From positions 1 through 61,672 of the IMG/VR virus record IMGVR_UViG_3300016667_000429: a stretch of DNA of 61,672 nt, one strand, 5' to 3'. The notes under the pieces were generated by a model. The model was not told the DNA's origin. It saw only the letters and a list, made by a program, of their open reading frames with translations, and did no database searches. Both the position numbers and the translations under genes were made by a program. The DNA is from a virus. Positions 9,526-22,125 of this stretch are shown in pieces; within the stretch, counting starts at the first letter, position 1; each line of letters opens with the position of its first letter.

Positions 9526-12500
9526 ATGAACAAAGAGAACCAGATCGGTCTTGACACCCTAAACTCAAATCCTTCTGGCCTCACCGAAGTTTCATGGAGC
9601 GCCCAATTCCAGCCTCAAGAGCCGCTCCCGCTCAAAGAATCCACCAACCCCGCCGCCGCAGGCCAGCCGCCTCAGAAACAGGGCGCGGGCATCTCCAACG
9701 ACAAGCTCGACGCCATCGCCCAGCGCGAGGGGCTGACGCCAGCGCAGGCGCGCATCTGGAAGGAAGGCATCCTCGCCCAAGAGTCGGGCAAGGGTTCCAA
9801 TTCCAAGACCAGCGTAGACGGCGCGCGCGGCCCCGGCCAAGTCATTCCCAGCACGTTTGCCGGCTACGCCAAGCCGGGGGAGCGCGTCGATAACGAGGAA
9901 CACAACCTCGCCGTGTCGGCGCGCATCGTCAAGGATCTGGCGACCAAGTTCAACGACGACCCGGCGCGCGTGGCCGTCGGCTACTTCTCCGGCGAGGGCA
10001 ACGTCAGCAAGAACGGCGGGCAGGCGTGGAAGAACGACGCCGCCGACGGCAACGGCAAGCGAGTTTCGAGCTACGCTTCCGACGTTCTGCGCCGGCTGGA
10101 AAGCGCGCCGCAGGCCAACGGCTCGCCCGCGCCCGCACCGGACACCAGCAAGATCCCGCGCTGGAACGACATCGTAGCCAAGCCGGAATACGCCAAGCTC
10201 TCGCCGGAAGATCAGCAAGCGGCCAAGGAGCTGTACTTCGACCATTACATCGCCCCGGTCGCGGGGGAGGACGCAGAAAGCCTGCGCGCGGAGTTCATGG
10301 CCAAGAAGGCCAGCGCGCCCGCTCCGAAGCAAGAGCCGGGGTTGCTCGACAAGGCGGGTCAGGTTGTCTCGGACATTTACTCGCAAGCGAAGAAAGAGCT
10401 GTTCCCCAAATCGGTTATGGAAGGCGCGCCGGCACAGCCGACGCCGACCGACGCCTCCTTTGCGCCGGCCAAGCCGGAGGTGCGCCGCGCCGTCGAGGCG
10501 CAGTGGGATGCCGCATCGCCCGCGCAGCGCGCCAAGATGGAGGCCGATCCGAGCTGGGTGGGCGACATCGCCCGCGCGCGCGCGGGTGCTTTTGGCCGTC
10601 AGGACAAGGCGCTGCCAAACAGCCCGACCCTACAAAGCGTCGATCCGCGCGTCGAGGCGCGCCGCGCCGAGCTGATCCGCAAAGGAGAAGATCCACGCTT
10701 TGCCGACACTGCCGCGCAGGAAGGTGCGCGCAAAGCTGCGGTGCCGGGGCAGGAAATTGCCGCGCTCGATGGCGTGGCGCAGAAGTCGGACTTTGACTTC
10801 GATACGCAAGCCGCGTTTTCTGGCGACAACAAGCTGCTGAACAACCCGATCACGCGCGCCGGAGCCAAGGGTGCGCTGGGCATTGCCAAGTTTGGGGCGG
10901 GCTACGGCCAGTTCATGTCCGACCTGTACGGGCTGGACGGCTCTGCCGGCGTGATGAAAGACGCTGGCGATTGGGTTCGCGGCAAGGAAGCGGCCATTGG
11001 CGAACGCGGCACGATGCTGGAGCGCAATCTGGAAGGTGCGCTGAGTTCGATCACGCAACAGCTTCCGCTGATGTTGGTGGGCGTCAAGACAGCCAGCGAA
11101 GCAATCCCGTTGGTCGGCATCGGGATGCAGACGTTCGGACAGGAGTACAGCGACGGTCGCGCCAAAGGGCAATCGATGGGCGAGGCGGCGACGCGCGCCG
11201 GCCTGTTCGCTGCATTTGAAATCGTGGGTGAGAAATTCTCAATCGGCGCAAACCTGAAGGCGCTGAAGGCGATCTTCGACAAGACGCCGACCGATCAGCT
11301 TGCCGGTCTGATGTGGAACGTCATCAAAAAAGAAGTTCCGAGCGAGATGCTGACCACCACCGGCCAGTTCGCCACAGACAAGCTGGGCGGCGGCGTCGGC
11401 CTGAACCCGAACGCCGGTACGCAAGAATTCATTGCGCAGATGGGCGACACGATCGTTCAGACGATCATGCAGTCGGTCATCATGGGTGGCGCACCGGGCG
11501 CGGTGAAAGGCACGCGAGACTTCCTGACCGACAAGGGCGACGAGTCGGCCAACATGGTCGAGATCCGCGCCAACTCCGCGCAAGAGCAGGCGCTGGCCAA
11601 ATGGGAGCAGTTCCGGCAGTCCACGCGCCCGCAGAACGCCGGTCGCCCGGAGCCGACCATGGGCGCGGAGACACCCGTCACCGTTACCGGCGACGGCAGG
11701 ATCGAGCCGACGATGGCCGACGATCCTATCGGGGCGATCGCTCTTACCGGGCAACAGCCGGCCACAGCCACGCCCACGCCGGAGCCGCAGGCCAACGCGA
11801 TCAGCCCGATCGTGGCCGATGCCGACCAGATTGTTTCCGAGCTGGCGACGCAGGCTGGCATCCCGCAGGACACGGTGCTGCCGACTCCCACGGCATCCAC
11901 GCCTACCGTCGCCGCGCCATCACCGACTACCGGCGCGGTAGAGCCGCAGACCGACAACGATGTGTCGGATCTGGCCGAGGTGCGGCTGGATCAGTTGCGT
12001 GCCAAGCGCGACGGCGGTTCGACCATGGTCATGACGGAGGACGGCCCGCAACAGGTCGATCAGCCGCCGATGGCGCTTACGCCGCAAGAAGCGCAGGAGC
12101 TGGCCACACTTGAATCTGGTGACATCAACGCGATCCGCACGTTGTATGGAGCCAACAACCCTGTGGCGCAAGCCACGCTCGAACCCGGCCTCGTAGCCGC
12201 ACAGGAGAACCCCAATGAAAGCGTACAAGCACAAGCCCCAGCCCAAGTCGATGGGACTGCACCTGGCATCGCCCCGCAAAATGCCGTCGGAAATGATGGG
12301 CAGTCAGGCGGGACAGCCGCCGTCCAAGAACCCGCAGCCGACGCCGCAAGCGCCCAAGTCGGTGCCGAAGGTGGCCAACGACAGCAAGGGCTATCAGCCG
12401 AAGATGCGCTAGAGCGCGAGGCGATCCAATCCGAGGCTGATTTCAAGCCGACGGATGTACCCGACATCGACGTTCCTTTTGACCCGATACCGACCAATGG

Positions 12501-15500
12501 CACTCAAACCCCTCAAGCCCAGCAAGCAGAAGCGCAAGGATCGGAAGCACCCGCAGCCAAGCGACAAGTAAGTGAAAAGACGGGCAACGTCAGAACGTCG
12601 TATGACGTTTGGGACGATGAAGGCAACAAGGGAACGATCAACATCATTCGCAAACCGGATGGTGAGGTATTTCGCATCTTTCAGGAATGGACGAACAAGG
12701 ATGGCAAGACAGCCCGTTTTGAGATGTCCACCGGATATGGCAAAGGGGCGGCCGACGATTACATTGTCAAAGCGATTGCAGAGCCAAGCGACTTGTCGCT
12801 AACCAAACCTGAGACAGTAACAGCACCACCCAAGACCGAGAAGGAAGCCAAACAGCGTAAACAGCAGCCGACGCAAGCCGCGCCGGATCTCGACGCCATG
12901 TTCGATGAGGTGCTGGCCGAGGAAACGGGTGGCAAGGAACAAGAGCAATCGCCGCTTTTGCGCGCGCGCAATGACCTGATCGATCTTCGCTCTCAAGTTG
13001 AAGCGCAAGGCAATGTTGTCGATGATCGATTGTTGGAGCGAGTGCGCCGGCAAGAACGTCTGGTCAAAGAGCTTCAGGGAGAGACTGCGCCCAAGACCGA
13101 GCGCCAAGCCAAAGAGCAGCGCACGGCCGGCGAGGCGGCAGCTTCGGCCGCCAAGAACACCGTCGAGGGATTCAACAATGCGATCGACGGGCTGGGCAAG
13201 CTGTTCGGCGGTGGCCCCGGTACGCTGGGCAGCGGCCCCGTGTTCAACGAGGAAACCTACCGCAAGGCCAAGCCGCTGTTCCAAGCCGCTGTTGCAAATT
13301 TCCAACAGGCCGGCGCAGACATTCGTGAGGTGATGCGCGCGGTCGTGCAAGCCTTGCTGGCCAAGTTCGGCAAGCAGGCCGTCGAAAACATGAAGCCGTA
13401 TGTCGTTCGGTTCATTTCGGAGTACCAGCAGGGCGACAAAACCGAGGCGGTATCAACCGCGACCGACCTGTACACGCCGGAAGGAAAGATGAAGGTCGCG
13501 CAGACGCTGGCCGACGAGTTCATCGGCGGCGCGAGCTTCAAGACCATCATCGAAGCGCGCAAGCGCATCAGCGATCTGATCGGCAAGCCCATTGAGGCGG
13601 CGACCGAGCTGGCCAAGCAGGCCGACGAAACGATCGAGGTGGCCGTCGTGCTGGCTGGCCGCGAGATCGTCAAGGCGGGGCGCGCGCAAGGCCGCAGCCC
13701 CCAGGTTATCTATGAACGGCTGGTGGATCTGTACAACCGCCAACCGAATCTGGCCGTGCGCTCGTCAACCAGCGTGCGCGATCAGGCGTACTCGACGCCG
13801 GTTCCGCTGGCGTATCTGGCCTCGGAGCTGGCCGGCATCACCTATGACAGCAAGGTGCTGGAGCCGACGGCGGGCAACGGAATGCTGCTGGTGGGCGCAG
13901 CCACCGAGAATTCCACGGCCAACGAGCTGAACCCGAAGCGTGCGTCCATGCTTCAGGCCATGGGCTTCGATGCGCTGACCGAGAACGCGGCAACCGAGGA
14001 TCTGGCCGATCCCAACAGCCAAGACGCGGTGATTGCCAACCCGCCGTTCGGCGCAACCAAGAACGCCAAAGGCGAAACCATCGTCTATGAGGTCAGGCCG
14101 GACTACGGCACGCGCGAGGTCGATCACGCGATCGCCTTCAACGCGCTGACCACCATGAAGGACGATGGCCGCGCCGCGCTGATCGTTGGTGGTACACAAT
14201 CAACGGAAGAAGAAGCCCGCCGCGAGGATTACCGTGGCAAGGGCAAACGGACGTTCTACTTCAACCTATATAACGAATACAATGTCGTTGACCACTTCAC
14301 TGTGGACGGCTCGCTTTACTCCAAGCAGGGCGCGAGCTACCCGGTGGATGTCATTGTCATTGAGGGTCGTGGGAAGTCTGCGCGGAATCTGCCGGCTGCT
14401 GACTTGCCGCAGATCATTGGTTCCTACGACGAACTCAAGGAGAAATTGAATGGCACTCGTAGCGTGGAGTCCCAAGGGGTACGCAGCACCGATCGAGCTG
14501 CTGGCGGTCAAGATCAAGCCGGGGCAGGTAACGGAACGGCAGTGGATCGAGGCACTGGCCGACCGAGTGACGCAACTGGCGATCGAGGCGGGCGAGGAAA
14601 CGACGCTGCAAGCGTGCCGAGATCTCGAACTGCCGGAGACAGACAACCCGCAGGAAGCGGGACAGTTTCTGGTGATGGGCAATCTCAATCTCAGGACACA
14701 TCTGGATCTCGCAGTGATCGACAAGCCGCCGTTCCCGGCGAAGGTCGGGGAACGCAACCCGGAAGCACAGCAAGCGATCGAGGAAACCGACCTGTCGAGG
14801 TGGGTGGAGAGCGCGTTGTCGCTGGTGAGCGCGTCGGATCTGGACTGACCGACCGGCGCGGCGAAGAAACCGAAACCGAGAACCAAGTAGCCTACGAGCC
14901 GCGCTCGAACGCGGCGTCTGTCGGCACGCTCGTCCCCCGCGCAATGCGGGATTCGATCCAGAACTCGATCGCCAAGATCGAGGATCAGTTCGGCAACATT
15001 GACGAGTTCGTAGCCGAGAAGCTGGAGATGGACGTTGAAACCCTCCGCGAAAATTTCTCTGCGGAGCAGGTTGACGCGCTGGCGCTGGCTATCAAGAACG
15101 CCGAGGAGGGACGCGGCTTCATCATTGGCGACCAGACCGGCATCGGCAAAGGCCGCGTGGTGGCCGCGATGATTCGCTACGCGCTGGTCAACGGCAAGGT
15201 GCCGATCTTCGTCACGGAAAAGCCAAACCTGTATTCGGACATGATCCGAGATCTGGACGACATCGGCATGACCGCCGAGTTGGCGCTCGACACCAACAAG
15301 CCACGCATCTTCATCACGAACGCCAGCGAGTCGATCCCGTACACACTGTTGCGTGAAAGCAACGGCGAGATTACGGAAACGAACCTGACGTTGCGCGCGC
15401 CTGCTTCCGGCAAAGCACTGGAACAACAGTTCCAGATGCACATGAACGCCAATGATCTTGGCCATTACAAGGTCATTTTCACGACGTACAGCCAGCTCCA

Positions 15501-18500
15501 GACGGTCAAAGGCAAGCAGACCACCCGCATGAACTTCGTCAAACAGTTCGGCGCGGGCAACTACATGATCTTCGATGAGTCGCACAACGCGGGCGGCGCG
15601 GGTGAGACTCAGGCGCGCAGCAAGGAGCAGCGCGACGCGGCCAAGGCTGGCGAAAGCCTCGTCACCGGGCGCGCGGCCTTCGTGCGCCAACTGGTCAACG
15701 CTGCCTTTGGCACGTTCTTCAGCTCAGCCACCTACGCCAAGCGACCGGATGTGATGGATCTGTACTCGTCCACGAACATGAAGCTGGCCGTGGATCGAAT
15801 CAGCCAGTTGGGCGAGGCCATCAAGAATGGCGGCGTGCCAATGCAACAGGTCGTCGCCAACATGCTGACGATCGACGGCCAGTACATCCGGCGCGAGCGC
15901 ACGTTCGCAGGCGTTTCCTACGATACCGTGGAAACGAAGGTGGACAAGGAAACCGCAGAAAACATGGCGTCGGCCATGCGGGCGGTGCTGGCGTTCTCGC
16001 GCGCCAAAGAAGCGGTCATCAAGAACATCCAGAAGGAGATGGACAAGGAAGGCACGCTCATCAAGCAGATGGGCGGCGAGTCCTCGACCATTCAGGGTGC
16101 GAACTTTGGCGCGATCATGCACAACCTGATCGACCAGATGCTGCTGTCGCTGAAGGTACAGGACTCCATCAACCACGCGCTTGAGCGCCTGAAGGCAGGC
16201 GAAAAGGTGGTGATGACGGTATCGAACACCATGGGTTCATTCCTCAAGGACTACGCCGAGGAAATGGGTCTGAACATGGGCGATCCGGTCGCGCTGTCGT
16301 TCAAGGATCTGTACGACCGCTACCTTGAGAAGCAGCGCATCGTGACGATCAAGGACGGCGCAGGACGCAAGACCCAGCGCCGACTGACCGACGCCGAGCT
16401 GGGGGCAACGCTGGTGGCTCAGTTCGAGGCGGTGCGCAAGCAGATTGCGGAGTCCGGCTTCGGTTCCGCGCCGATCTCGCCCATCGACTTTTTGCACAAC
16501 GAGCTGCGCAAGGCGGGCTACAAGACCGACGAGATCACCGGGCGCACGGTCACGCTGAACTATCAGAGCGGCACGCCCATCCTGACCAGCCGCAGCGCGA
16601 ACATCCGTCAGCGGGTCAACGCGGTGCGCGGGTTCAACAACGGCGACGTTGACGTAATCATCCTGAACCAAGCTGGCTCGACCGGCCTTTCGCTGCACGC
16701 TGCCTCGAAGTTCAAGGATAAGCGAAAGCGGCACATGATTATTGTGCAGGCCGAGAAGAACATCGACACGCACATGCAGATGCTAGGTCGCGTGCATCGT
16801 ACCGGCCAAGTCATCCCGCCGGCCTACTCGCAGATGATGGCCGACATCCCGGCTGAGATGCGCCCGGCTGCGGTGCTGATGAAGAAGATGGCCAGCCTGA
16901 ACGCAAACACCACGGCCAGCCGCAAGTCGTCGGTGACTGCCGAGGGTGTCGTTGACTTCGTGAACGACTACGGCGGTCAGGTGGCGCAGGAGTTTTTGCG
17001 CGACAACCCGGATGTTGTCGAGGCGATCGGCGGCAGCAAGGTGGTGCCGATCCTCGATGACCCATCCGAGGCGTCCGAGGACGACATTCGCAAGCTAACC
17101 GGCTACATCCCGATCCTGCCGATCAAGCAGCAGGAGCAGATTTATAAGGATCTGATCGACCGCTACAACGAGCTGATCGAGCGCGAGAACACGCTCGGCA
17201 CGAACAAGCTGGAAGCCAAGGCGGTTGATCTTGATGCGCAAATCCTGTCCACGGTTCAGATCACCGAGGACAAGGGCGATCCATCCATCTTTGCCCAGCC
17301 GGCCAGCATGGAGCAGGTTGACGTTAAGCGCAATGTGAAGCCGTACACCAGCGCAGAAGTCAACGAGATCGTCAACGAACGCCTGGGCGATAAGACGGCG
17401 GGTGCCGTTGCGAACGATTTCATCAAGATGGTGACTGAGCTTACGCACCAGTTTGAGCGCGAAAAGATTGATGCCGAGAAGAAGAAGGAAGGTGTCGATC
17501 CGGTTAAGATCGAGTCGCAGCGCGCGATCATCAACATGACGCTCGGCCACGTTCGCGCCGTCCTTCAGAACTACCAGATCGGTAACTCCATCTCGATCAA
17601 GGACAAGAACGGCTTCATCATCTACGGCGTCATCACCGACATTCAGAACAAAGGCCGCACGCAAAACCCGGCAGCGGGTTCGGCGTGGAAGATGACGATC
17701 GCGCTGGCCAACGGCGATGCCAAGAGCCTGACGATCAACTTCGGCCAGATCGGAAATCGCTACGAGCTGTCGCGGGAAACGCGCGTCAACTGGTACAACG
17801 CGGAAACGCAGAGTGCCGAGATGATGAACATCACGGACATCTTCGACAAAGGTTCGACGGTGCGCCGCGAGAAGCGTTGGATGGTGACGGGCAACATCCT
17901 CGCTGGCTTTGCTAAGTACCCCGGCCAGATCATTCAGTACACCAAGAAAGACGGCACGACCGGACAGGGCGTGCTGATGAACCGTCAGTTTGATTTTGCC
18001 AAAGAGCAGAAGAACCAGCCGGTCACGCTGAAGTCCGGCGCGCAAGTCATGCAGTTCATCAAGGCGGTTGGCGATGGCGCGATGGTTGGTACGCCGGATG
18101 GTAATTTCCGTATGAGCTTGCGCAACGGCAAATTTGTATTCGTAGTGCCAAAGAGCAAGAGACAGGGCGGCAAATACCATCAGGACAAAGGACTCACCCA
18201 ACACACCGGCGAATTTTACAGTCGCGGTGAGCAGATGGTGGCCAACACCTATGACGCCGCCGACGCCACAGCCGCGCTGGACTACATCATCAACGAGATT
18301 GAGGAATCGATTCAGGCGTTGAACAACGCCGACAAGGCGCGCGAGATGTTTGCGCCGAAGCCGAAGGAGGGCGGCGTCGAGCTGAACGACATACCCAGCA
18401 ACCTCGCTGAAAACGGGCTGTTCACCAATCTTCCGGAGCCTGAGCGCGTTAACGCAATGGCGCGATTGAAGTCGCTGGAGCGTCGTGCGCAAGCTGGCAA

Positions 18501-21500
18501 GATCACCGACGCCGAGTTCCGGCTGGGAGTGGCACAAGTCGTTGCCGACATGCAACGCAAGGCCAATGCGAGATCGGAGCCAAAAGATCTGGTGCGTGGC
18601 CCCGATTGGGTCAGGGAGCGGCTGCTGCGCGCTCGTCGCACCAATGAACTGCCGGCCAATGTGGTCGATTTCGCGCTGTGGCTGCTGGACAAGAATCCGG
18701 CGCTGGCAACCGATCTCGCCATCAGCTTGCAGAAAGGCGGTGACAACTCGCCGTCCGGTTCATACAAGTCGCTGGCGCGGCTGGTCACGTTGTTCAAGAA
18801 CAACGTCAACTCCGGCACCGCCGTCCACGAGATCCTGCACCACGCCGAGCGCATGATGTCGGGCGAAGTGCATAAGGGCGTGATCCGCGAATGGCAGCGG
18901 GCTTGGGACGCTGCGTACCGCAAAGGTGACGCCAAGACCAAAGAGGCGCTGGTCAAGCTGCTACAAGGCGGGCTGGGCAACAAGGCAGCGTTTGCCGATG
19001 CGATACAAGCCTTCAAGGACGGCACGCTGAATTACGAGGAACACTACCAGCTTACGAATCCTTCTGAGTATTGGGCAGTCAACGCCACGCGCATCCTGTC
19101 GCAGCGGTACGGCGCGAACACTTGGCAGGAGAAGGCGCGTCAATTCCTGCGCGAGATGATCGAGTACATGAAAGGTGCGTTGGGTTTCCGCTCCGACACG
19201 CAGATCATGAAAGGGCTGCGTCAGGTCATCAAAGGCGACGGCTCGATGGTGTCGAGCAAGATGCTGGTCGAGCAGGTAGCGAACAATGACATCAAGGCCG
19301 ACCCGAACAAGCTGCCACCGACCGAGTTCATGGACATTCGATCCAGCGTGCAGGCCGCGCTGTTCAAGAACCCAAAGACGCTGCGCACGTTCGGCTGGTA
19401 CGACAGGAGCATTTCGACTCAGCTCAATAAGGCGCTCAAAGACGCTGACTTTGCCAAGGTGTTCGGCTACGTCAACGCCATCCAGAACGAGGTGTCGCTG
19501 ACCTCCCTGCGCGCCGCCGAGCTGGCTCCGGGCTACCTGCCGCGCATTACCGATGTGAAGGCGGCGGCAAAAACGATGGTCATGGGGCGCAAATCCGGCT
19601 CCGCGCAAGCCAAGGCTTCGCAGGCGATCTTCTCCGGCACGCTGGCCGGCGATACGGTCATGGAGGGCAAGGTCTGGACGGAAGAAGAACTGCGCAACAA
19701 CTTCGGTCTGGACGATACCGGCGTGGCGCTGTACTTCCAAGCGCGCGCCGCGATCGATGCCAGCCTGGACGAAGTGGCCGCAGCGGAAGCCTACGCCATG
19801 GCGCAAGGCTTCATTCCAAAAGCAATGCGCCGCGCCATCATCGACAGCCCGCAACGCGCCGAGGCACTCATTTCGGCTTCCCTTGAGCAGCAGATCAAGA
19901 AGCTACAGCGCGCTATCAAGGCCGCAAACGACATGGGCAACGAGGCGCAAGCCAAGTCGCTGGAGGATGTCATCAACGGCTATTTTTCGACGGCCAAGCA
20001 GATCGAGAAAATCTTCACGACCTCACGCAACTTGAAGGCGGCTGGATACGCACCGCTGATGCGCTTCGGCAAGTACACGGTGACGGCTCAAGCCATCGAT
20101 GCGGCAACTGGCAACCTGATCCGCGACGAAGAGGGCAACTCAATCACGATGTTCTTCGGCAAGTACGAAACCGAAGGCGAAGCGCAAAACGTCCTGCAAT
20201 CCATGCAAGCACAGTACGCAGGGCGCGACGATGTGAAGATCAGCGCGGGCGTGAGCAGCGAAGCCGGCTACGAGCTGTACTCCGGTATCAGCCCAGAAAC
20301 GCTGGCGCTGTTTGCCGAGGCGCTGGGCGCAGACAAGGTGATGAAGAAGTACATTCAGGAAGCCCTGTCTGAGCGGTCGGCATTGAAGCGCCGGCTGGAG
20401 CGCAAAGGGGTCGAGGGCTACACGCAAGATATGCCCCGCGTGCTGGCGAACTTCATTACCAGCAATGCGCGTCACGCATCGAAGCAGTATTACATGCGCG
20501 ACCTCAACAACGCGATCAAGTACATCCCGAAAGAGAAGGGTGATGTAAAGGACGAGGCGATCGCGCTCAAGGAGTTCGTCCTGAACGCGAAAGACCCCGG
20601 CTCGGCATTGTCGGCCATCACGTTCGGCTGGTTCTTGGGCGGGTCGGTGTCGTCGGCTTTGGTCAACATGACCCAGCCGATCATGATGACCGGCCCGTAC
20701 CTGTCGCAGTTTGGCGTGCGCGACGCCACGACCGCCATGGCCAAGGCCATGCCGATCGCGCTGGGCAGAAAGCAGATCACCGATGCGGAACTCCGCAATG
20801 CCTTGAAGCGCGCATCGCAGGAAGGCATCGTGGACGCGCAGGAGATCTTCCACCTGTACAGCCAAGGCGCGCAGAACACGGCGGCATGGCTGGCCAGCAC
20901 ATTGGCCAAAGTGCCGGGGGCAGGCGCGAAGGTCAAAGCCGGTAGCGAAAGCGTTCGGGCGCGCGCATCGGCGTTCGGCGTGCTGTGGGGTTCGATGTTT
21001 GCCGCTGTGGAGGGCTTCAACCGTCGCCTGACGTTCGTGGCGGCGTGGGAAGTGGCCAAAGCGACGGGCGTCAAGAACCCGTATGCGTTCGCCGTGCGCG
21101 CTGTCAACGAAACTCAGGGCATCTTCAACAAGGCCAACCGCCCGAATTGGGCGCGCGGCGGTCTTGGCCGAATGGTATTCACTTTCAAGCAGTACAGCAT
21201 CATGTACGTCGAGCTGGTCAAGCGCATGGCTACAAAAGGTGGCCCCGAAGGCAAGCGGGCTGCGCTCATCATGCTGGCCACGCTGCTGCTGCTGTCGGGC
21301 GAGGAAGGTCTGCCGTTTTCGCAGGATCTTGCCGACATCATTGACACGATCGGCCAGTTCCTCGGCTACGACACCAACATGCTGCGCAGCAAGCGCGAGC
21401 TGGCGCACAAGATCTTGGGCGAGCAGCTTGGCGACTTCGCTTTGTATGGCCTGTCATCCTTCCTGCCGGTGGACTTCCAAGGCCGGCTTGGCTTGGGCAA

Positions 21501-22125
21501 CCTGATCCCCGGCACGGGTATGTTGAAAAAATCCAACACCGCGATGGAATCTGTGCGGTCGATTGTGGAGATTGCCGGCCCGACCGCCTCCATCGGCACG
21601 CAGGTGGGCGACGCGGCAGAGGCGGCGTCGGAGGAAAACTACGATCAGGCTCGCCGCAACCTTGCACCCAAGGCCGTCAAGGATTTGATGATGGGCTTGG
21701 ACATGCTGGACAAGGGCTATGCGGTGGACGCTGCGGGCAACAAGAAGGTGAACACGACGCCTGCCGACGCCTACATCAAGATGCTGGGCTTCAATCCAAC
21801 TGTCGTGGCACAGAAGAACCGTAGCCAGATGGTCGAGCGACAGGACATCAATCTTCAAAAGGAAACCGAGTCGTCCATTGTCAAACAGATGGCACGCGCG
21901 CTTTCGGAAGGCGACAAAGAGCTAGAGAAGAAGGCCGACCGGCGCTTGGAGAATTGGAACAAGTCCAACCCGAATACGCCGATCGTCATCAAACCGCGTC
22001 AAATCAAAGATGCGATGAAGAACATGGCTTCTGACAGCGATGCTCGGCTCATCAAACGCGCCCCGCGTGAGATGCGGGGGCGCGTTGCGGATAATTTATC
22101 GGACGACACAACAAGTGACGATTAA
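9526..22125 (+). CDS. giant polyvalent virion protein (4199 aa): lytic transglycosylase + N6-adenine-type methyltransferase + SNF2/strawberry-notch-like helicase + HExxH zincin-like region + PLxRFG region + C-terminal TM helices
   Basis: 12.6-kb uninterrupted frame. SLT motif AQESG...GPGQV (Glu codon 9781). MTase motifs EPTAGNG (13861) and NPPF (14038..14049). Helicase motifs GDQTGIGKGR (15127..), DESH (15574..), STGLSLH and QMLGRVHRTGQ (about 16.7-16.8 kb). HEILH at 18826..18840. PLMRFG at 20053..20070. Hydrophobic helices at about 20.6-21.3 kb. Confidence 0.9.
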   Translation: MNKENQIGLDTLNSNPSGLTEVSWSAQFQPQEPLPLKESTNPAAAGQPPQKQGAGISNDKLDAIAQREGLTPAQARIWKEGILAQESGKGSNSKTSVDGARGPGQVIPSTFAGYAKPGERVDNEEHNLAVSARIVKDLATKFNDDPARVAVGYFSGEGNVSKNGGQAWKNDAADGNGKRVSSYASDVLRRLESAPQANGSPAPAPDTSKIPRWNDIVAKPEYAKLSPEDQQAAKELYFDHYIAPVAGEDAESLRAEFMAKKASAPAPKQEPGLLDKAGQVVSDIYSQAKKELFPKSVMEGAPAQPTPTDASFAPAKPEVRRAVEAQWDAASPAQRAKMEADPSWVGDIARARAGAFGRQDKALPNSPTLQSVDPRVEARRAELIRKGEDPRFADTAAQEGARKAAVPGQEIAALDGVAQKSDFDFDTQAAFSGDNKLLNNPITRAGAKGALGIAKFGAGYGQFMSDLYGLDGSAGVMKDAGDWVRGKEAAIGERGTMLERNLEGALSSITQQLPLMLVGVKTASEAIPLVGIGMQTFGQEYSDGRAKGQSMGEAATRAGLFAAFEIVGEKFSIGANLKALKAIFDKTPTDQLAGLMWNVIKKEVPSEMLTTTGQFATDKLGGGVGLNPNAGTQEFIAQMGDTIVQTIMQSVIMGGAPGAVKGTRDFLTDKGDESANMVEIRANSAQEQALAKWEQFRQSTRPQNAGRPEPTMGAETPVTVTGDGRIEPTMADDPIGAIALTGQQPATATPTPEPQANAISPIVADADQIVSELATQAGIPQDTVLPTPTASTPTVAAPSPTTGAVEPQTDNDVSDLAEVRLDQLRAKRDGGSTMVMTEDGPQQVDQPPMALTPQEAQELATLESGDINAIRTLYGANNPVAQATLEPGLVAAQENPNESVQAQAPAQVDGTAPGIAPQNAVGNDGQSGGTAAVQEPAADAASAQVGAEGGQRQQGLSAEDALEREAIQSEADFKPTDVPDIDVPFDPIPTNGTQTPQAQQAEAQGSEAPAAKRQVSEKTGNVRTSYDVWDDEGNKGTINIIRKPDGEVFRIFQEWTNKDGKTARFEMSTGYGKGAADDYIVKAIAEPSDLSLTKPETVTAPPKTEKEAKQRKQQPTQAAPDLDAMFDEVLAEETGGKEQEQSPLLRARNDLIDLRSQVEAQGNVVDDRLLERVRRQERLVKELQGETAPKTERQAKEQRTAGEAAASAAKNTVEGFNNAIDGLGKLFGGGPGTLGSGPVFNEETYRKAKPLFQAAVANFQQAGADIREVMRAVVQALLAKFGKQAVENMKPYVVRFISEYQQGDKTEAVSTATDLYTPEGKMKVAQTLADEFIGGASFKTIIEARKRISDLIGKPIEAATELAKQADETIEVAVVLAGREIVKAGRAQGRSPQVIYERLVDLYNRQPNLAVRSSTSVRDQAYSTPVPLAYLASELAGITYDSKVLEPTAGNGMLLVGAATENSTANELNPKRASMLQAMGFDALTENAATEDLADPNSQDAVIANPPFGATKNAKGETIVYEVRPDYGTREVDHAIAFNALTTMKDDGRAALIVGGTQSTEEEARREDYRGKGKRTFYFNLYNEYNVVDHFTVDGSLYSKQGASYPVDVIVIEGRGKSARNLPAADLPQIIGSYDELKEKLNGTRSVESQGVRSTDRAAGGQDQAGAGNGTAVDRGTGRPSDATGDRGGRGNDAASVPRSRTAGDRQPAGSGTVSGDGQSQSQDTSGSRSDRQAAVPGEGRGTQPGSTASDRGNRPVEVGGERVVAGERVGSGLTDRRGEETETENQVAYEPRSNAASVGTLVPRAMRDSIQNSIAKIEDQFGNIDEFVAEKLEMDVETLRENFSAEQVDALALAIKNAEEGRGFIIGDQTGIGKGRVVAAMIRYALVNGKVPIFVTEKPNLYSDMIRDLDDIGMTAELALDTNKPRIFITNASESIPYTLLRESNGEITETNLTLRAPASGKALEQQFQMHMNANDLGHYKVIFTTYSQLQTVKGKQTTRMNFVKQFGAGNYMIFDESHNAGGAGETQARSKEQRDAAKAGESLVTGRAAFVRQLVNAAFGTFFSSATYAKRPDVMDLYSSTNMKLAVDRISQLGEAIKNGGVPMQQVVANMLTIDGQYIRRERTFAGVSYDTVETKVDKETAENMASAMRAVLAFSRAKEAVIKNIQKEMDKEGTLIKQMGGESSTIQGANFGAIMHNLIDQMLLSLKVQDSINHALERLKAGEKVVMTVSNTMGSFLKDYAEEMGLNMGDPVALSFKDLYDRYLEKQRIVTIKDGAGRKTQRRLTDAELGATLVAQFEAVRKQIAESGFGSAPISPIDFLHNELRKAGYKTDEITGRTVTLNYQSGTPILTSRSANIRQRVNAVRGFNNGDVDVIILNQAGSTGLSLHAASKFKDKRKRHMIIVQAEKNIDTHMQMLGRVHRTGQVIPPAYSQMMADIPAEMRPAAVLMKKMASLNANTTASRKSSVTAEGVVDFVNDYGGQVAQEFLRDNPDVVEAIGGSKVVPILDDPSEASEDDIRKLTGYIPILPIKQQEQIYKDLIDRYNELIERENTLGTNKLEAKAVDLDAQILSTVQITEDKGDPSIFAQPASMEQVDVKRNVKPYTSAEVNEIVNERLGDKTAGAVANDFIKMVTELTHQFEREKIDAEKKKEGVDPVKIESQRAIINMTLGHVRAVLQNYQIGNSISIKDKNGFIIYGVITDIQNKGRTQNPAAGSAWKMTIALANGDAKSLTINFGQIGNRYELSRETRVNWYNAETQSAEMMNITDIFDKGSTVRREKRWMVTGNILAGFAKYPGQIIQYTKKDGTTGQGVLMNRQFDFAKEQKNQPVTLKSGAQVMQFIKAVGDGAMVGTPDGNFRMSLRNGKFVFVVPKSKRQGGKYHQDKGLTQHTGEFYSRGEQMVANTYDAADATAALDYIINEIEESIQALNNADKAREMFAPKPKEGGVELNDIPSNLAENGLFTNLPEPERVNAMARLKSLERRAQAGKITDAEFRLGVAQVVADMQRKANARSEPKDLVRGPDWVRERLLRARRTNELPANVVDFALWLLDKNPALATDLAISLQKGGDNSPSGSYKSLARLVTLFKNNVNSGTAVHEILHHAERMMSGEVHKGVIREWQRAWDAAYRKGDAKTKEALVKLLQGGLGNKAAFADAIQAFKDGTLNYEEHYQLTNPSEYWAVNATRILSQRYGANTWQEKARQFLREMIEYMKGALGFRSDTQIMKGLRQVIKGDGSMVSSKMLVEQVANNDIKADPNKLPPTEFMDIRSSVQAALFKNPKTLRTFGWYDRSISTQLNKALKDADFAKVFGYVNAIQNEVSLTSLRAAELAPGYLPRITDVKAAAKTMVMGRKSGSAQAKASQAIFSGTLAGDTVMEGKVWTEEELRNNFGLDDTGVALYFQARAAIDASLDEVAAAEAYAMAQGFIPKAMRRAIIDSPQRAEALISASLEQQIKKLQRAIKAANDMGNEAQAKSLEDVINGYFSTAKQIEKIFTTSRNLKAAGYAPLMRFGKYTVTAQAIDAATGNLIRDEEGNSITMFFGKYETEGEAQNVLQSMQAQYAGRDDVKISAGVSSEAGYELYSGISPETLALFAEALGADKVMKKYIQEALSERSALKRRLERKGVEGYTQDMPRVLANFITSNARHASKQYYMRDLNNAIKYIPKEKGDVKDEAIALKEFVLNAKDPGSALSAITFGWFLGGSVSSALVNMTQPIMMTGPYLSQFGVRDATTAMAKAMPIALGRKQITDAELRNALKRASQEGIVDAQEIFHLYSQGAQNTAAWLASTLAKVPGAGAKVKAGSESVRARASAFGVLWGSMFAAVEGFNRRLTFVAAWEVAKATGVKNPYAFAVRAVNETQGIFNKANRPNWARGGLGRMVFTFKQYSIMYVELVKRMATKGGPEGKRAALIMLATLLLLSGEEGLPFSQDLADIIDTIGQFLGYDTNMLRSKRELAHKILGEQLGDFALYGLSSFLPVDFQGRLGLGNLIPGTGMLKKSNTAMESVRSIVEIAGPTASIGTQVGDAAEAASEENYDQARRNLAPKAVKDLMMGLDMLDKGYAVDAAGNKKVNTTPADAYIKMLGFNPTVVAQKNRSQMVERQDINLQKETESSIVKQMARALSEGDKELEKKADRRLENWNKSNPNTPIVIKPRQIKDAMKNMASDSDARLIKRAPREMRGRVADNLSDDTTSDD
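14450..14848 (+). CDS. nested +1-frame ORF (132 aa, acidic) inside the giant gene linker; candidate overprinted gene
   Basis: AAGGAG (14437..14442) lies 7 nt before the ATG, and an in-frame TGA lies immediately upstream. Hand-counted GC3 is about 77% in this frame versus about 43% in the giant-gene frame over the same bases. The translated sequence is globular-looking, whereas the main frame here is a G/R/D/S low-complexity stretch. Confidence 0.45.
   Translation: MALVAWSPKGYAAPIELLAVKIKPGQVTERQWIEALADRVTQLAIEAGEETTLQACRDLELPETDNPQEAGQFLVMGNLNLRTHLDLAVIDKPPFPAKVGERNPEAQQAIEETDLSRWVESALSLVSASDLD

What the first reader, a model, noticed from the sequence alone, without database searches (positions are those of the whole stretch)
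14450..14848. Nested +1-frame gene candidate inside the giant gene: the linker looks like the wrong frame of a real gene
Between the methyltransferase and helicase modules, the giant-gene frame encodes about 130 aa of G/R/D/S low complexity. It uses codons that are rare elsewhere in the gene (cga, gga, tct, aga). My hand count gives about 43% G/C at third positions there (55 of 129 codons). That compares with about 84% in the 50 codons just downstream.

The +1 frame over the same bases behaves differently.
- It has about 77% GC3 (101 of 132 codons).
- It uses the genome-typical ctg/gcg/ccg/atc/gag codons.
- It starts with an ATG placed 7 nt after AAGGAG (14437..14442).
- It is immediately preceded by an in-frame TGA.
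- It encodes a globular-looking, strongly acidic 132-aa protein (roughly 22 D/E versus 11 K/R): MALVAWSPKGYAAPIELLAVKIKPGQVTERQWIEALADRVTQLAIEAG...

No other alternative-frame ORF in the 12.6-kb gene has these properties; the others are Arg/Ser/Cys-rich. Two readings are possible. An originally separate small gene may have been overprinted when flanking genes fused into one frame. Alternatively it may be a genuine gene-within-gene, co-expressed with the polyvalent protein. Given its acidity and its position between DarB-like modules, it could be an anti-restriction or DNA-mimic type factor; that last point is speculative.
Basis: seen in the sequence. Interest (0 to 1): 0.8.

Follow-up and report, generated by a model that had tools for sequence, protein, structure and literature searches.

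The report
Hidden gene inside giant phage gene
A small, well-folded protein of unknown function is encoded in a shifted reading frame inside the flexible linker of a 4,199-residue phage protein; both readings are conserved in dozens of uncultured phages, and standard annotation misses the small gene.

Summary

- **The ORF.** ORF 14450-14848 (132 aa) lies in the +1 frame of the giant gene 9526-22125. It is the only one of 32 alternative-frame segments of 70 or more codons with coding-type codon-position GC (0.70/0.42/0.77).
- **Conservation.** The same ORF sits at the same place in 64 distinct phage and metagenome sequences (37-69% GC).
- **Start signals.** AAGGAG-N7-ATG is nearly universal. 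All 48 loci with Lys-Glu there use AAG-GAG, against 14.6 expected.
- **Selection on the small frame.** dN/dS is about 0.4 in the small frame, against about 1.4 in the giant frame.
- **Fold.** AlphaFold gives a confident fold (pLDDT 91) with no known relative.
- **Selection on the giant frame.** It stays open (0 stops against 8.6 expected) and hydrophilic (2.6% against 16% hydrophobic residues). Synonymous change in the small gene is 2-10 times lower than in the flanks.
- **Escaped copies.** Intact copies survive in conjugative and integrative elements where the giant frame is broken.
- **Deeper relatives.** More distant giant genes carry shorter homologous nested ORFs. A cultured Bacteroides phage, BS-TP4, has an unannotated analogue.

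Function is unknown. The DNA-mimic idea is not supported, and no expression data exist.

The parts
9526..22125 (+). Host gene. It encodes a 4199-aa polyvalent protein with SLT lytic transglycosylase (aa 82-169), an N6-adenine methyltransferase (NPPF motif at 14038-14052), and a Strawberry-notch-type SF2 helicase (AAA_34 aa 1843-2144; Helicase_C_4 aa 2335-2559). It lies next to internal-virion-protein and tail-fibre genes of a phage.
14422..14448 (+). Conserved end of the methyltransferase module in the giant frame (SYDELKEKL). Its Lys-Glu codons form the ribosome-binding site of the nested gene.
14437..14442 (+). Shine-Dalgarno AAGGAG, 7 nt upstream of the nested ATG. AAG-GAG is used in 48 of 48 loci that have Lys-Glu here, against 14.6 expected from each locus's own codon usage. 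This holds even in phages of 37-45% GC.
14447..14449 (+). TGA in the nested frame immediately before the ATG. A stop at this place occurs in 47 of 53 unique nested loci, against about 42% expected. It rules out an N-terminally extended product and rules out frameshift entry upstream of the ATG.
14450..14848 (+). Nested gene in the +1 frame: a 132-aa acidic (pI 4.4) globular alpha/beta protein. It belongs to an uncharacterised family of 148 clusters at 50% identity. AlphaFold gives pLDDT 91.3, and there is no fold or sequence relative in PDB, BFVD, Pfam, PHROGs, NCBIfam or PADLOC.
14449..14850 (+). The same bases read in the giant frame (aa 1642-1775): a G/R/S/A/D/T-rich linker with almost no hydrophobic residues (1 Leu, no aromatic). 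Its sequence is not conserved beyond non-coding expectation. It is nevertheless kept free of stops and of hydrophobic residues.
14815..14907 (+). Conserved giant-frame motif VVAGERVGSGL-TDRRGEETETENQVAYEPRS, which begins the helicase module. Its first 11 codons overlap the conserved C-terminus of the nested protein (..SLVSASDLD*), so this stretch is conserved in both frames.

Best explanation
14450-14848 is a real protein-coding gene wholly embedded, in the +1 frame, in the gene for a giant DarB-like polyvalent phage protein.

Supported by comparative sequence analysis:
- The small frame carries the selection on amino-acid sequence.
- The same nucleotides read in the giant frame give a flexible hydrophilic linker between the methyltransferase and helicase modules. 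Its sequence is free to vary, but it is kept open and non-hydrophobic by the choice of synonymous codons in the small gene. This is true dual coding.
- The arrangement is ancestral to a broad clade of uncultured phages.
- The small gene has repeatedly escaped as a stand-alone gene into other mobile elements.

Inferred:
- The small protein is made by internal translation initiation at its own AAGGAG-N7-ATG on the giant-gene mRNA, so it is produced together with the giant protein late in infection.
- The arrangement most likely arose when a pre-existing small gene was captured in the tolerant disordered linker of an already fused methyltransferase-helicase gene. The -1 reading of an ordinary gene is naturally hydrophilic, because its second codon position is the purine-rich first position of the small gene. 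Read-through therefore needed only stop avoidance.

Function is not determined. My best guess is a trans-acting binding protein of the same counter-defence module. It would be either an autonomous anti-defence factor (about 40%) or an adaptor/chaperone for the giant ejected protein (about 25%).
For: - **Composition.** It is the only alternative-frame ORF in the gene with a coding-type GC1/2/3 profile.
- **Family size and length.** 30 close homologues of 119-164 aa. 148 clusters in a search of 1.84 billion proteins, none a giant protein carrying the domain in frame.
- **Nesting is conserved.** All 25 viral loci found with the small protein are nested. All loci found through the helicase flank at 54% identity or more, and with enough upstream DNA, are nested. 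26 of 31 metagenome loci are nested. In total there are 64 unique nested ORFs, forming 28 clusters at 70% identity, at 37-69% GC.
- **Selection on the small frame.** Median dN/dS is 0.40, against 1.37 in the giant frame and 1.02 in the third frame. Amino-acid identity is 52.6%, against 40.4% and 41.5%.
- **Dual constraint.** The probability that the giant frame stays open under synonymous resampling is 0-0.08 per locus. Stops are 0 against 8.6 expected, and FWYILMC is 2.6% against 16.1%. dS inside the small ORF is 2-10 times lower than in the flanks. Small-ORF GC3 stays at 0.67-0.77 in phages of 42-49% GC, whereas a stand-alone homologue in a 39% GC genome has GC3 0.30.
- **RBS.** AAGGAG occurs in 48 of 48 loci, against 14.6 expected. 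A stop precedes the ATG in 47 of 53. No hairpin masks the site.
- **Fold.** pLDDT 91.3, pTM 0.85.
- **Escaped intact copies with a broken giant frame.** L001 lies in an F-type conjugative element and keeps a 530-nt relic of giant aa 1615-1792. L006 lies after hsdR. L115/L116 lie in an integrase plus AAA_25 element.
- **Deep conservation.** Giant genes with only 44-49% identity in the helicase flank all carry a +1 ORF of 84-148 codons at the same place. These are homologous to the family core (hhalign Prob 91%, E 1e-6).
Against: - There is no direct evidence of expression: no ribosome profiling, proteomics or transcript data.
- In the window alone, the open +1 frame is expected by chance 48% of the time.
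- The loci are phylogenetically related, so counts such as 48/48 and 47/53 are not independent trials.
- Nei-Gojobori dN/dS is biased in overlapping regions.
- Six of 53 nested loci lack the stop before the ATG, and a few GC-rich ones lack AAGGAG.
- The origin cannot be settled. Every stand-alone copy above about 50% identity carries relics of the giant gene, so birth of the family inside the linker is not excluded.
- For function there is nothing beyond context and one domain fusion.
Confidence: 0.87

Rival explanations
1. Chance ORF. The +1 frame of a G/R/S-rich low-complexity linker happens to be open and to look coding, and no protein is made.
For: Given the linker's amino-acid sequence, the +1 frame is open in 48% of resamplings in the window. 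High-GC DNA carries many long spurious ORFs.
Against: - The protein sequence is conserved down to 39% identity at constant length.
- dN/dS is 0.4 in this frame only.
- The SD codon choice is 48 of 48.
- The fold prediction is confident.
- Intact copies persist where the giant frame has decayed.
- The giant-frame peptide is no more conserved than the non-coding frame.
Confidence: 0.02
2. Sequencing or assembly artefact. Two compensating indels put an in-frame domain of the giant protein out of frame.
For: One short metagenome contig (L145) does show a single frame change that fuses the methyltransferase end to residues 22-132 of the small protein.
Against: - The same frame relationship, with a stop just before the ATG and a stop at the end, recurs in 64 distinct sequences. 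These come from independent samples and assemblers.
- No protein in 1.84 billion representatives carries the domain in frame within a giant protein.
Confidence: 0.01
3. The small frame is decoded by programmed +1 ribosomal frameshifting from the giant frame rather than by independent initiation. This would give a truncated SLT-methyltransferase-small-domain fusion.
For: An internal SD-like AAGGAG a few nucleotides upstream is the kind of element that stimulates frameshifting in prfB and dnaX (my own knowledge). The L145 variant shows that such a fusion can exist as DNA.
Against: - A stop codon in the +1 frame sits immediately before the ATG in 47 of 53 loci. A shift would therefore have to occur exactly on (A/G)AU-G, where tRNA-Asn or tRNA-Asp cannot re-pair.
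- There is no slippery motif.
- SD-to-ATG spacing is the canonical 7 nt.
- Stand-alone copies start at the same Met.
Confidence: 0.04
4. The small gene is real, but the giant ORF is not translated across it. The locus would effectively be two large genes, with the helicase half made by re-initiation, and the open linker would be incidental.
For: - Gene callers split the locus at this point on truncated contigs, calling the helicase gene from an internal start.
- The linker uses codons that are rare for the gene.
Against: - The giant frame has 0 stops against 8.6 expected in each of 64 linkers. It is also depleted sixfold in hydrophobic residues. Neither is expected if it were untranslated.
- The methyltransferase-helicase dyad is a single polypeptide in relatives (PMC5512222).
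- Free-standing copies quickly acquire 2-7 stops in that frame.
Confidence: 0.04
5. Rival on origin. The small protein family was born de novo inside the linker by classical overprinting and later spread to other elements, rather than being a captured pre-existing gene.
For: - All stand-alone copies at 50% identity or more carry relics of the giant gene (L001, L006, L115, L121, L141), so the observed direction of movement is outward.
- The nested state is ancestral to the whole phage clade.
Against: - The small frame has the genome-typical codon profile and the giant frame does not. By the usual codon-usage criterion the small frame is therefore the older one.
- The product is a compact, confidently folded alpha/beta domain. 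It has diverse fusions: ankyrin, T5orf172, YbjN-like and tandem.
- Relic-free stand-alone members exist in low-GC genomes (L113, L130).
- De novo overprinted proteins are typically disordered (PMC8227390).
Confidence: 0.25

Closest known systems
Embedded spanin genes Rz/Rz1 of phage lambda and relatives (from my own knowledge)
   Same: A small gene lies wholly inside a larger gene in the +1 frame. It has its own ribosome-binding site, and both products are made from one late mRNA.
   Different: - In Rz/Rz1 both products are small and both sequences are constrained. Here the host frame over the overlap is only a spacer under composition and openness constraints.
- The embedded protein here is a soluble acidic globular protein, not a lipoprotein.
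- The host gene is 12.6 kb.
- Functional partnership of the two products is not shown here.
Viral overlapping genes created by overprinting (reviewed in PMC8227390; phiX174 A/B/K and D/E from my own knowledge)
   Same: There is dual coding of one stretch of DNA, synonymous change is suppressed, and one frame encodes a disordered peptide.
   Different: The usual polarity is reversed. Here the embedded frame is the ordered one with typical codon usage, which marks it as older. The host gene's frame is the disordered one with atypical codon usage. The likely origin is capture of a gene in a linker rather than birth of a new ORF.
DarB-type methyltransferase-helicase dyad of polyvalent proteins (phage P1 DarB; PMC5512222)
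   Same: The host gene has the dyad, with additional modules (SLT), and it lies among virion genes. The Xanthomonas plasmid relative aligns on both sides of the linker (33% identity over the methyltransferase, 49% at the start of the helicase).
   Different: - The plasmid relative has a normal in-frame linker with GC3 0.84-0.88 and no +1 ORF.
- Acinetobacter phage MD-2021a has an acidic in-frame linker without a nested ORF.
- The review of polyvalent proteins has no occurrence of 'overlapping' or 'frameshift', and its one use of 'reading frame' concerns neighbouring small ORFs, so it mentions no embedded gene.
Small anti-restriction proteins and DNA mimics (Ocr, ArdA, ArdB/KlcA)
   Same: It is small and acidic, is carried by phages, conjugative elements and integrative elements, and is associated with a counter-restriction gene.
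   Different: There is no sequence or fold similarity. Acidic content is modest at 17%. Conserved residues are mostly hydrophobic plus W, G, R and N, not a charge ladder.

Membership tests
Fully embedded out-of-frame phage gene (Rz1-type architecture) | The ORF lies entirely within a longer ORF on the same strand in a different frame. | tested here: met
   14450-14848 lies inside 9526-22125, in the +1 frame.
Fully embedded out-of-frame phage gene (Rz1-type architecture) | It has its own translation start signals. | tested here: met
   AAGGAG-N7-ATG is present. AAG-GAG is used in 48 of 48 loci, against 14.6 expected. Actual initiation is not testable here.
Fully embedded out-of-frame phage gene (Rz1-type architecture) | Both frames are under selection. 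| tested here: met
   - Small frame: dN/dS 0.40.
- Giant frame: 0 stops against 8.6 expected and hydrophobic residues 2.6% against 16.1%.
- dS is suppressed 2-10 fold.
Fully embedded out-of-frame phage gene (Rz1-type architecture) | Both products are detected and functionally linked. | not testable with these tools
   No expression or interaction data are available.
DarB-like methyltransferase-helicase polyvalent protein (host gene) | An N6-adenine methyltransferase is followed in the same polypeptide by an SF2 (Sno/SNF2-type) helicase. | tested here: met
   - AAA_34 E 7e-24 and Helicase_C_4 E 2e-22.
- N6_Mtase is only E 0.002, below the Pfam cut-off. However, the NPPF motif is present, and there is 33% identity over 254 aa to the methyltransferase of a plasmid dyad protein.
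DarB-like methyltransferase-helicase polyvalent protein (host gene) | The protein is packaged in the virion and protects incoming DNA from restriction. | not testable with these tools
   There is only gene neighbourhood: internal virion protein and tail-fibre genes lie upstream.
Known anti-restriction proteins / DNA mimics (Ocr, ArdA, ArdB/KlcA, ArdC) | Sequence or fold similarity to a characterised member. | tested here: not met
   - No Pfam, PHROG, NCBIfam or PADLOC family.
- Foldseek best E > 1 and TM < 0.3 against PDB and BFVD.
- No PDB sequence match.
Known anti-restriction proteins / DNA mimics (Ocr, ArdA, ArdB/KlcA, ArdC) | A very high density of surface carboxylates that mimics the DNA backbone. 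| tested here: inconclusive
   There are 22 D/E in 132 aa (17%), pI 4.43. From memory this is well below Ocr and ArdA. The conserved columns are not acidic. Surface geometry was not analysed.
Programmed ribosomal frameshift site | A slippery sequence that allows tRNA re-pairing in the new frame, with the new frame open across the shift site. | tested here: not met
   The +1 frame has a stop immediately before the ATG in 47 of 53 loci, and there is no slippery motif.
YbjN / type III secretion chaperone-like fold | An alpha-beta3-alpha-beta2-alpha fold. | tested here: not met
   The small protein itself has a different fold. Only the C-terminal domain fused to it in one subfamily matches YbjN, AmyR and SicP (prob 1.0, TM about 0.6, E 1e-3 to 6e-2).

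The most novel reading that the evidence does not exclude
The disordered linker of a giant ejected counter-defence protein doubles as the coding region of a new-fold protein. This protein would be a functional partner of the giant protein or a further, separately delivered anti-defence effector.

Its embedded position would ensure synthesis in cis with the giant protein. Satellite-like integrative elements and conjugative elements would have repeatedly stolen it.

The arrangement would have arisen by capture of a gene into a linker, which is overprinting in reverse. The same trick would be used independently or anciently in Bacteroides gut phages such as BS-TP4.
Probability: 0.3. Interest if true: 0.85.

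Novelty: new variant of a known kind. Interest (0 to 1): 0.78.

Why it matters
- **A clean natural case of long dual coding in dsDNA phages.** About 400 nt are read in two frames, and the division of labour can be read from the sequence. One frame carries a folded protein. The other needs only to be an open, hydrophilic spacer. This shows how a disordered linker can host a whole gene at little cost.
- **A systematic annotation blind spot.** In the protein database the family appears almost only on short contigs, or where a contig end cuts the giant ORF. The GenBank record of phage BS-TP4 annotates only the giant gene over the analogous ORF.
- **A new player in a counter-defence module.** The family has no known relative, has a confident predicted fold, and sits in the middle of a DarB-like module. 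It has spread to conjugative and integrative elements, which makes it a candidate anti-defence or effector-handling factor.
- **A testable system.** A cultured phage with an analogous nested ORF (Bacteroides phage BS-TP4, host B. salyersiae) makes direct experiments possible.

Tried and rejected
- **Family libraries.** Pfam, PHROGs, NCBIfam and PADLOC scans of the small protein and six relatives found nothing.
- **Structure and PDB sequence.** Foldseek against PDB and BFVD, and a profile search of PDB sequences, found nothing.
- **Cultured phages and plasmids.** tblastn of the small protein and of two distant nested proteins against cultured phages found no match, nor did the small protein against PLSDB plasmids. 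blastn of the region found only the helicase start in plasmids.
- **Xanthomonas linker motif.** The in-frame linker of the Xanthomonas plasmid dyad has MTLREWDAALAE, which resembles VTERQWIEALADR. hhalign gives Prob 1.3%, so I rejected it as evidence of homology.
- **Second low-GC3 stretch.** The +1 segment 12197-12409 inside the giant gene's other low-GC3 stretch (12076-12976) has GC3 0.85. It encodes a P/K-rich peptide without a good start, so it is not a gene candidate.
- **RNA structure at the start.** I looked for a conserved RNA hairpin over the SD and AUG, which could imply translational coupling. None was found.
- **Openness in the window alone.** This is not significant (P = 0.48).
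- **BS-TP4 homology.** The BS-TP4 nested family (A5) against the small-protein family (A1) gives hhalign Prob 4.5-12%. I therefore treat it as an analogue at the homologous junction, not as a proven homologue.
- **Literature.** Searches for an embedded gene in DarB-like or polyvalent genes found no prior report in the held library.
Full report
**1.

The window carries a 4199-codon ORF at 9526-22125 and a 132-codon ORF at 14450-14848, one base further along the frame.
- AAGGAG lies at 14437-14442, 7 nt before the ATG. TGA at 14447-14449 is in the small frame directly before the ATG.
- Across 14476-14776 the giant frame has codon-position GC of 0.74/0.74/0.40, against 0.62/0.44/0.77 for the whole gene. 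Read in the +1 frame the ORF gives 0.70/0.42/0.77, which is the normal coding signature.
- Among 32 alternative-frame open segments of at least 70 codons inside the giant gene, it is the only one with this profile.
- The small protein has 22 D/E and 11 K/R, pI 4.4. The giant-frame peptide over the same bases is G/R/S/A-rich, with no aromatic residue and one Leu.
- One caveat: given that linker peptide, the +1 frame would be open by chance in 48% of resamplings. The window alone does not prove a gene.

**2. Context**

The window is a tailed phage. It encodes a portal protein, a major head protein, an internal virion protein, tail fibres and a primase.

The giant protein has an SLT domain, an N6-adenine methyltransferase (NPPF motif) and a Strawberry-notch-type SF2 helicase. 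This is the methyltransferase-helicase dyad of DarB-like polyvalent proteins (PMC5512222). The nested ORF lies exactly between the two dyad modules.

**3. The small ORF is a conserved protein**
- A search of 5.8 billion proteins found 30 relatives at 39-100% identity, nearly all 129-135 aa. They share the N-terminus MAL(V/I)AW.P and the C-terminus ..SSLD.
- A profile search of 1.84 billion representatives found 148 clusters. Most are 125-150 aa. Some are fused to ankyrin repeats, a T5orf172 domain, a second copy of the domain, or a C-terminal domain of about 200 aa.
- No giant protein carries the domain in frame.
- AlphaFold2 on the 30-sequence alignment gives pLDDT 91.3 and pTM 0.85, with three short strands and six helices.
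- Nothing similar was found in PDB or BFVD by fold, in PDB by sequence, or in Pfam, PHROGs, NCBIfam or PADLOC.

**4. The nested arrangement is conserved**
- All 25 IMG/VR loci found with the small protein have it in the +1 frame of an open giant ORF of 2300-4640 codons. Nearly all have AAGGAG-N7-ATG and a stop before the ATG. The giant frame reads ..Y(D/E)(E/Q)LKEKL(N/D).. at the junction.
- I also searched from the other side, with the first 300 residues of the helicase module. Every locus at 54% identity or more with enough upstream DNA has the nested ORF.
- 26 of 31 metagenome loci are nested.
- In total there are 70 unique small ORFs, of which 64 are nested. The nested ones form 28 clusters at 70% identity, from loci of 37-69% GC.

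**5. Which frame is selected**

Over the same nucleotides:

| Measure | Small frame | Giant frame | Third frame |
|---|---|---|---|
| Mean pairwise amino-acid identity | 52.6% | 40.4% | 41.5% |
| Median Nei-Gojobori dN/dS | 0.40 | 1.37 | 1.02 |

So the small protein's sequence is under purifying selection. The linker peptide's sequence is not, except at its two ends. There the conserved giant motifs (SYDELKEKL, and VVAGERVGSGL-TDRRGEE.ETENQV.Y.P.S) abut or overlap the small gene.

**6. The giant frame is nevertheless constrained: true dual coding**

I resampled synonymous codons of the small gene using each locus's own codon usage.
- The giant frame stays open with probability 0-0.08, mostly below 0.01. 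All nested loci are open.
- The expected number of stops per linker is 8.6, and the observed number is 0. Expected FWYILMC content is 16.1%, and observed is 2.6%.
- In phages of 42-49% GC the small ORF keeps GC3 at 0.67-0.77. A stand-alone homologue in a 39% GC genome has GC3 0.30, and its -1 frame is full of stops.
- dS inside the small ORF is 2-10 times lower than in the 300-codon flanks of the same pairs.

The linker is therefore translated and selected to be an open, hydrophilic spacer.

**7. Translation signals**
- In all 48 loci where the giant protein has Lys-Glu at this place, the codons are AAG-GAG. Only 14.6 are expected from each locus's own Lys and Glu codon usage. The per-locus expectation is 0.02-0.18 in the phages of 37-45% GC that have Lys-Glu there. 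This is selection on the nucleotides of a Shine-Dalgarno sequence.
- A stop codon sits directly before the ATG in 47 of 53 loci, against about 42% expected.
- Together with the absence of a slippery site, this argues for independent initiation rather than frameshifting.
- No conserved hairpin covers the site.

**8. Escaped copies**
- **L001.** In a 125-kb contig with F-type transfer genes, the small gene is intact. It sits on a 530-nt relic of the giant gene (aa 1615-1792, 47% identity) whose giant frame has three stops.
- **L006.** In a Proteobacteria MAG, an intact copy with its AAGGAG lies 40 nt after a type I hsdR gene. The giant frame is broken there too.
- **L115/L116.** These carry an intact copy in a small integrative element (integrase plus AAA_25 protein), with a faint relic of the junction.
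- **L121.** This is an N-terminally extended fusion in an integrase plus DUF3987 element.
- **L130.** This is a relic-free copy directly downstream of a McrB_N-NOV_C gene.
- **L141.** This is a truncated, decaying copy.

The small gene thus survives without the giant gene, which argues for an autonomous function.

**9. Depth of the arrangement**
- Giant genes with only 44-49% identity in the helicase flank (L099-L112, GC 37-68%) give no hit with the family HMM at its threshold, apart from one weak match (L110, E 2e-6). All of them still have a +1 ORF of 84-148 codons right after the methyltransferase end. In that ORF the +1 frame has higher GC3 than the giant frame, whose GC3 collapses over the linker in most of them. 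Most have an SD-like element and an ATG at the junction.
- A profile of 12 of these products matches the core helices of the family (hhalign Prob 91%, E 1e-6).
- A Xanthomonas plasmid dyad protein and Acinetobacter phage MD-2021a have ordinary in-frame linkers without a nested ORF.
- The cultured Bacteroides phage BS-TP4 (PQ571277.1, gp3, 5391 aa) has the junction NFNEKTNGTE, a G/R/S/T-rich linker and an unannotated +1 ORF of 115 codons (GC3 0.65, against 0.34-0.38 in the giant frame).
  - Relatives of 103-125 aa occur in gut metagenomes.
  - Its homology to the window's family is not significant (Prob 4.5-12%).

**10. Mechanism and origin (inference)**

The small protein is made from the giant-gene mRNA by internal initiation. 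The giant protein is read through the same bases as a flexible tether.

The dyad is normally a single protein, the small frame has the typical codon profile, and the small protein is a compact folded domain with many architectures. The most economical origin is therefore capture of a small gene, with its RBS, in the tolerant linker after ..SYDEL.

The -1 reading of a normal gene is intrinsically hydrophilic, because its second codon position is the purine-rich first position of the embedded gene. Only stop avoidance and some polishing were needed. In-situ birth followed by escape is not excluded (I put it at about 25%).

**11. Function**

Function is unknown.
- For an autonomous counter-defence role: the gene sits in a DarB-like module, it has spread to conjugative and integrative elements, and two stand-alone copies lie directly downstream of restriction-type genes.
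- For a chaperone or adaptor role towards the giant ejected protein: it is synthesised in cis. One subfamily fuses the domain to a YbjN / type III secretion chaperone-like domain (pLDDT 80.8; matches to YbjN, AmyR and SicP with TM about 0.6 but weak E-values).
- The conserved residues (W, G, R, N, D and hydrophobic residues) look like a binding protein, not an enzyme.
- The DNA-mimic idea has no support.

**12. Limits**
- There are no expression data.
- The loci are related, so counts are not independent trials.
- dN/dS estimators are biased in overlaps.
- Functional inference rests on context only.
- No prior description of this nested gene was found in the searchable literature. That library is incomplete.

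Noticed in passing
L150 2627-2971 (Bacteroides phage BS-TP4, PQ571277.1, inside gp3): This cultured phage has an unannotated 115-codon +1 ORF in the methyltransferase-helicase linker of its 5391-aa giant gene, at the homologous junction (NFNEKTNGTE). Relatives of 103-125 aa occur in human gut metagenomes. Homology to the window's family is not significant. It is a possible experimental model.
   Followed up: partly
P0058, P0061, P0064 and relatives (alignment A4); L113 930-1928: A subfamily of about 330 aa fuses the small domain to a C-terminal domain whose predicted fold matches YbjN, AmyR and type III secretion chaperones (SicP). In L113 it lies next to a divergent HTH_3 regulator and an unknown 134-aa gene.
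   Followed up: partly
L006 90-2291; L130 174-2152: Two stand-alone copies of the small gene lie directly downstream of, and co-oriented with, restriction-type genes. One is a type I HsdR and the other a McrB_N plus NOV_C protein. This could reflect a functional link, or simply defence-island and mobile-element clustering.
   Followed up: no
L145 1288-1959 (metagenome contig Ga0182022_1276163): A single frame change about 20 codons into the overlap fuses the methyltransferase C-terminus to residues 22-132 of the small protein. The helicase half is left in another frame. It may be a real variant or a sequencing error.
   Followed up: no
window 12076-12976: A second stretch of the giant gene has low GC3 (0.53-0.63). 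It is an A/Q/G/P-rich low-complexity spacer (aa about 850-1150). The +1 segment 12197-12409 has GC3 0.85 but encodes a P/K-rich peptide. I did not compare it across relatives.
   Followed up: partly
L032 6265-6835 (Xanthomonas citri plasmid NZ_CP020890.1, Sno-domain protein aa 480-655): The in-frame linker of the plasmid dyad protein contains a helical-looking segment with the motif MTLREWDAALAE. This resembles the small protein's VTERQWIEALADR. The profile comparison is not significant (Prob 1.3%).
   Followed up: yes
database hits P0001-P0030: Gene callers report the small protein almost only on contigs shorter than 2 kb, or where a contig end or decay removes the giant ORF. On long contigs the giant gene masks it, so the family is systematically under-annotated.
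   Followed up: partly
window 14266-15690 (- strand): A 474-codon antisense ORF spans the finding. I did not analyse it. Long antisense ORFs occur along the whole giant gene.
   Followed up: no
L105/L106, L108, L109, L112 (distant giant genes): In some distant relatives an extra in-frame, normally coded domain lies between the nested ORF and the helicase. The nested ORF therefore tracks the methyltransferase end rather than the helicase start.
   Followed up: no
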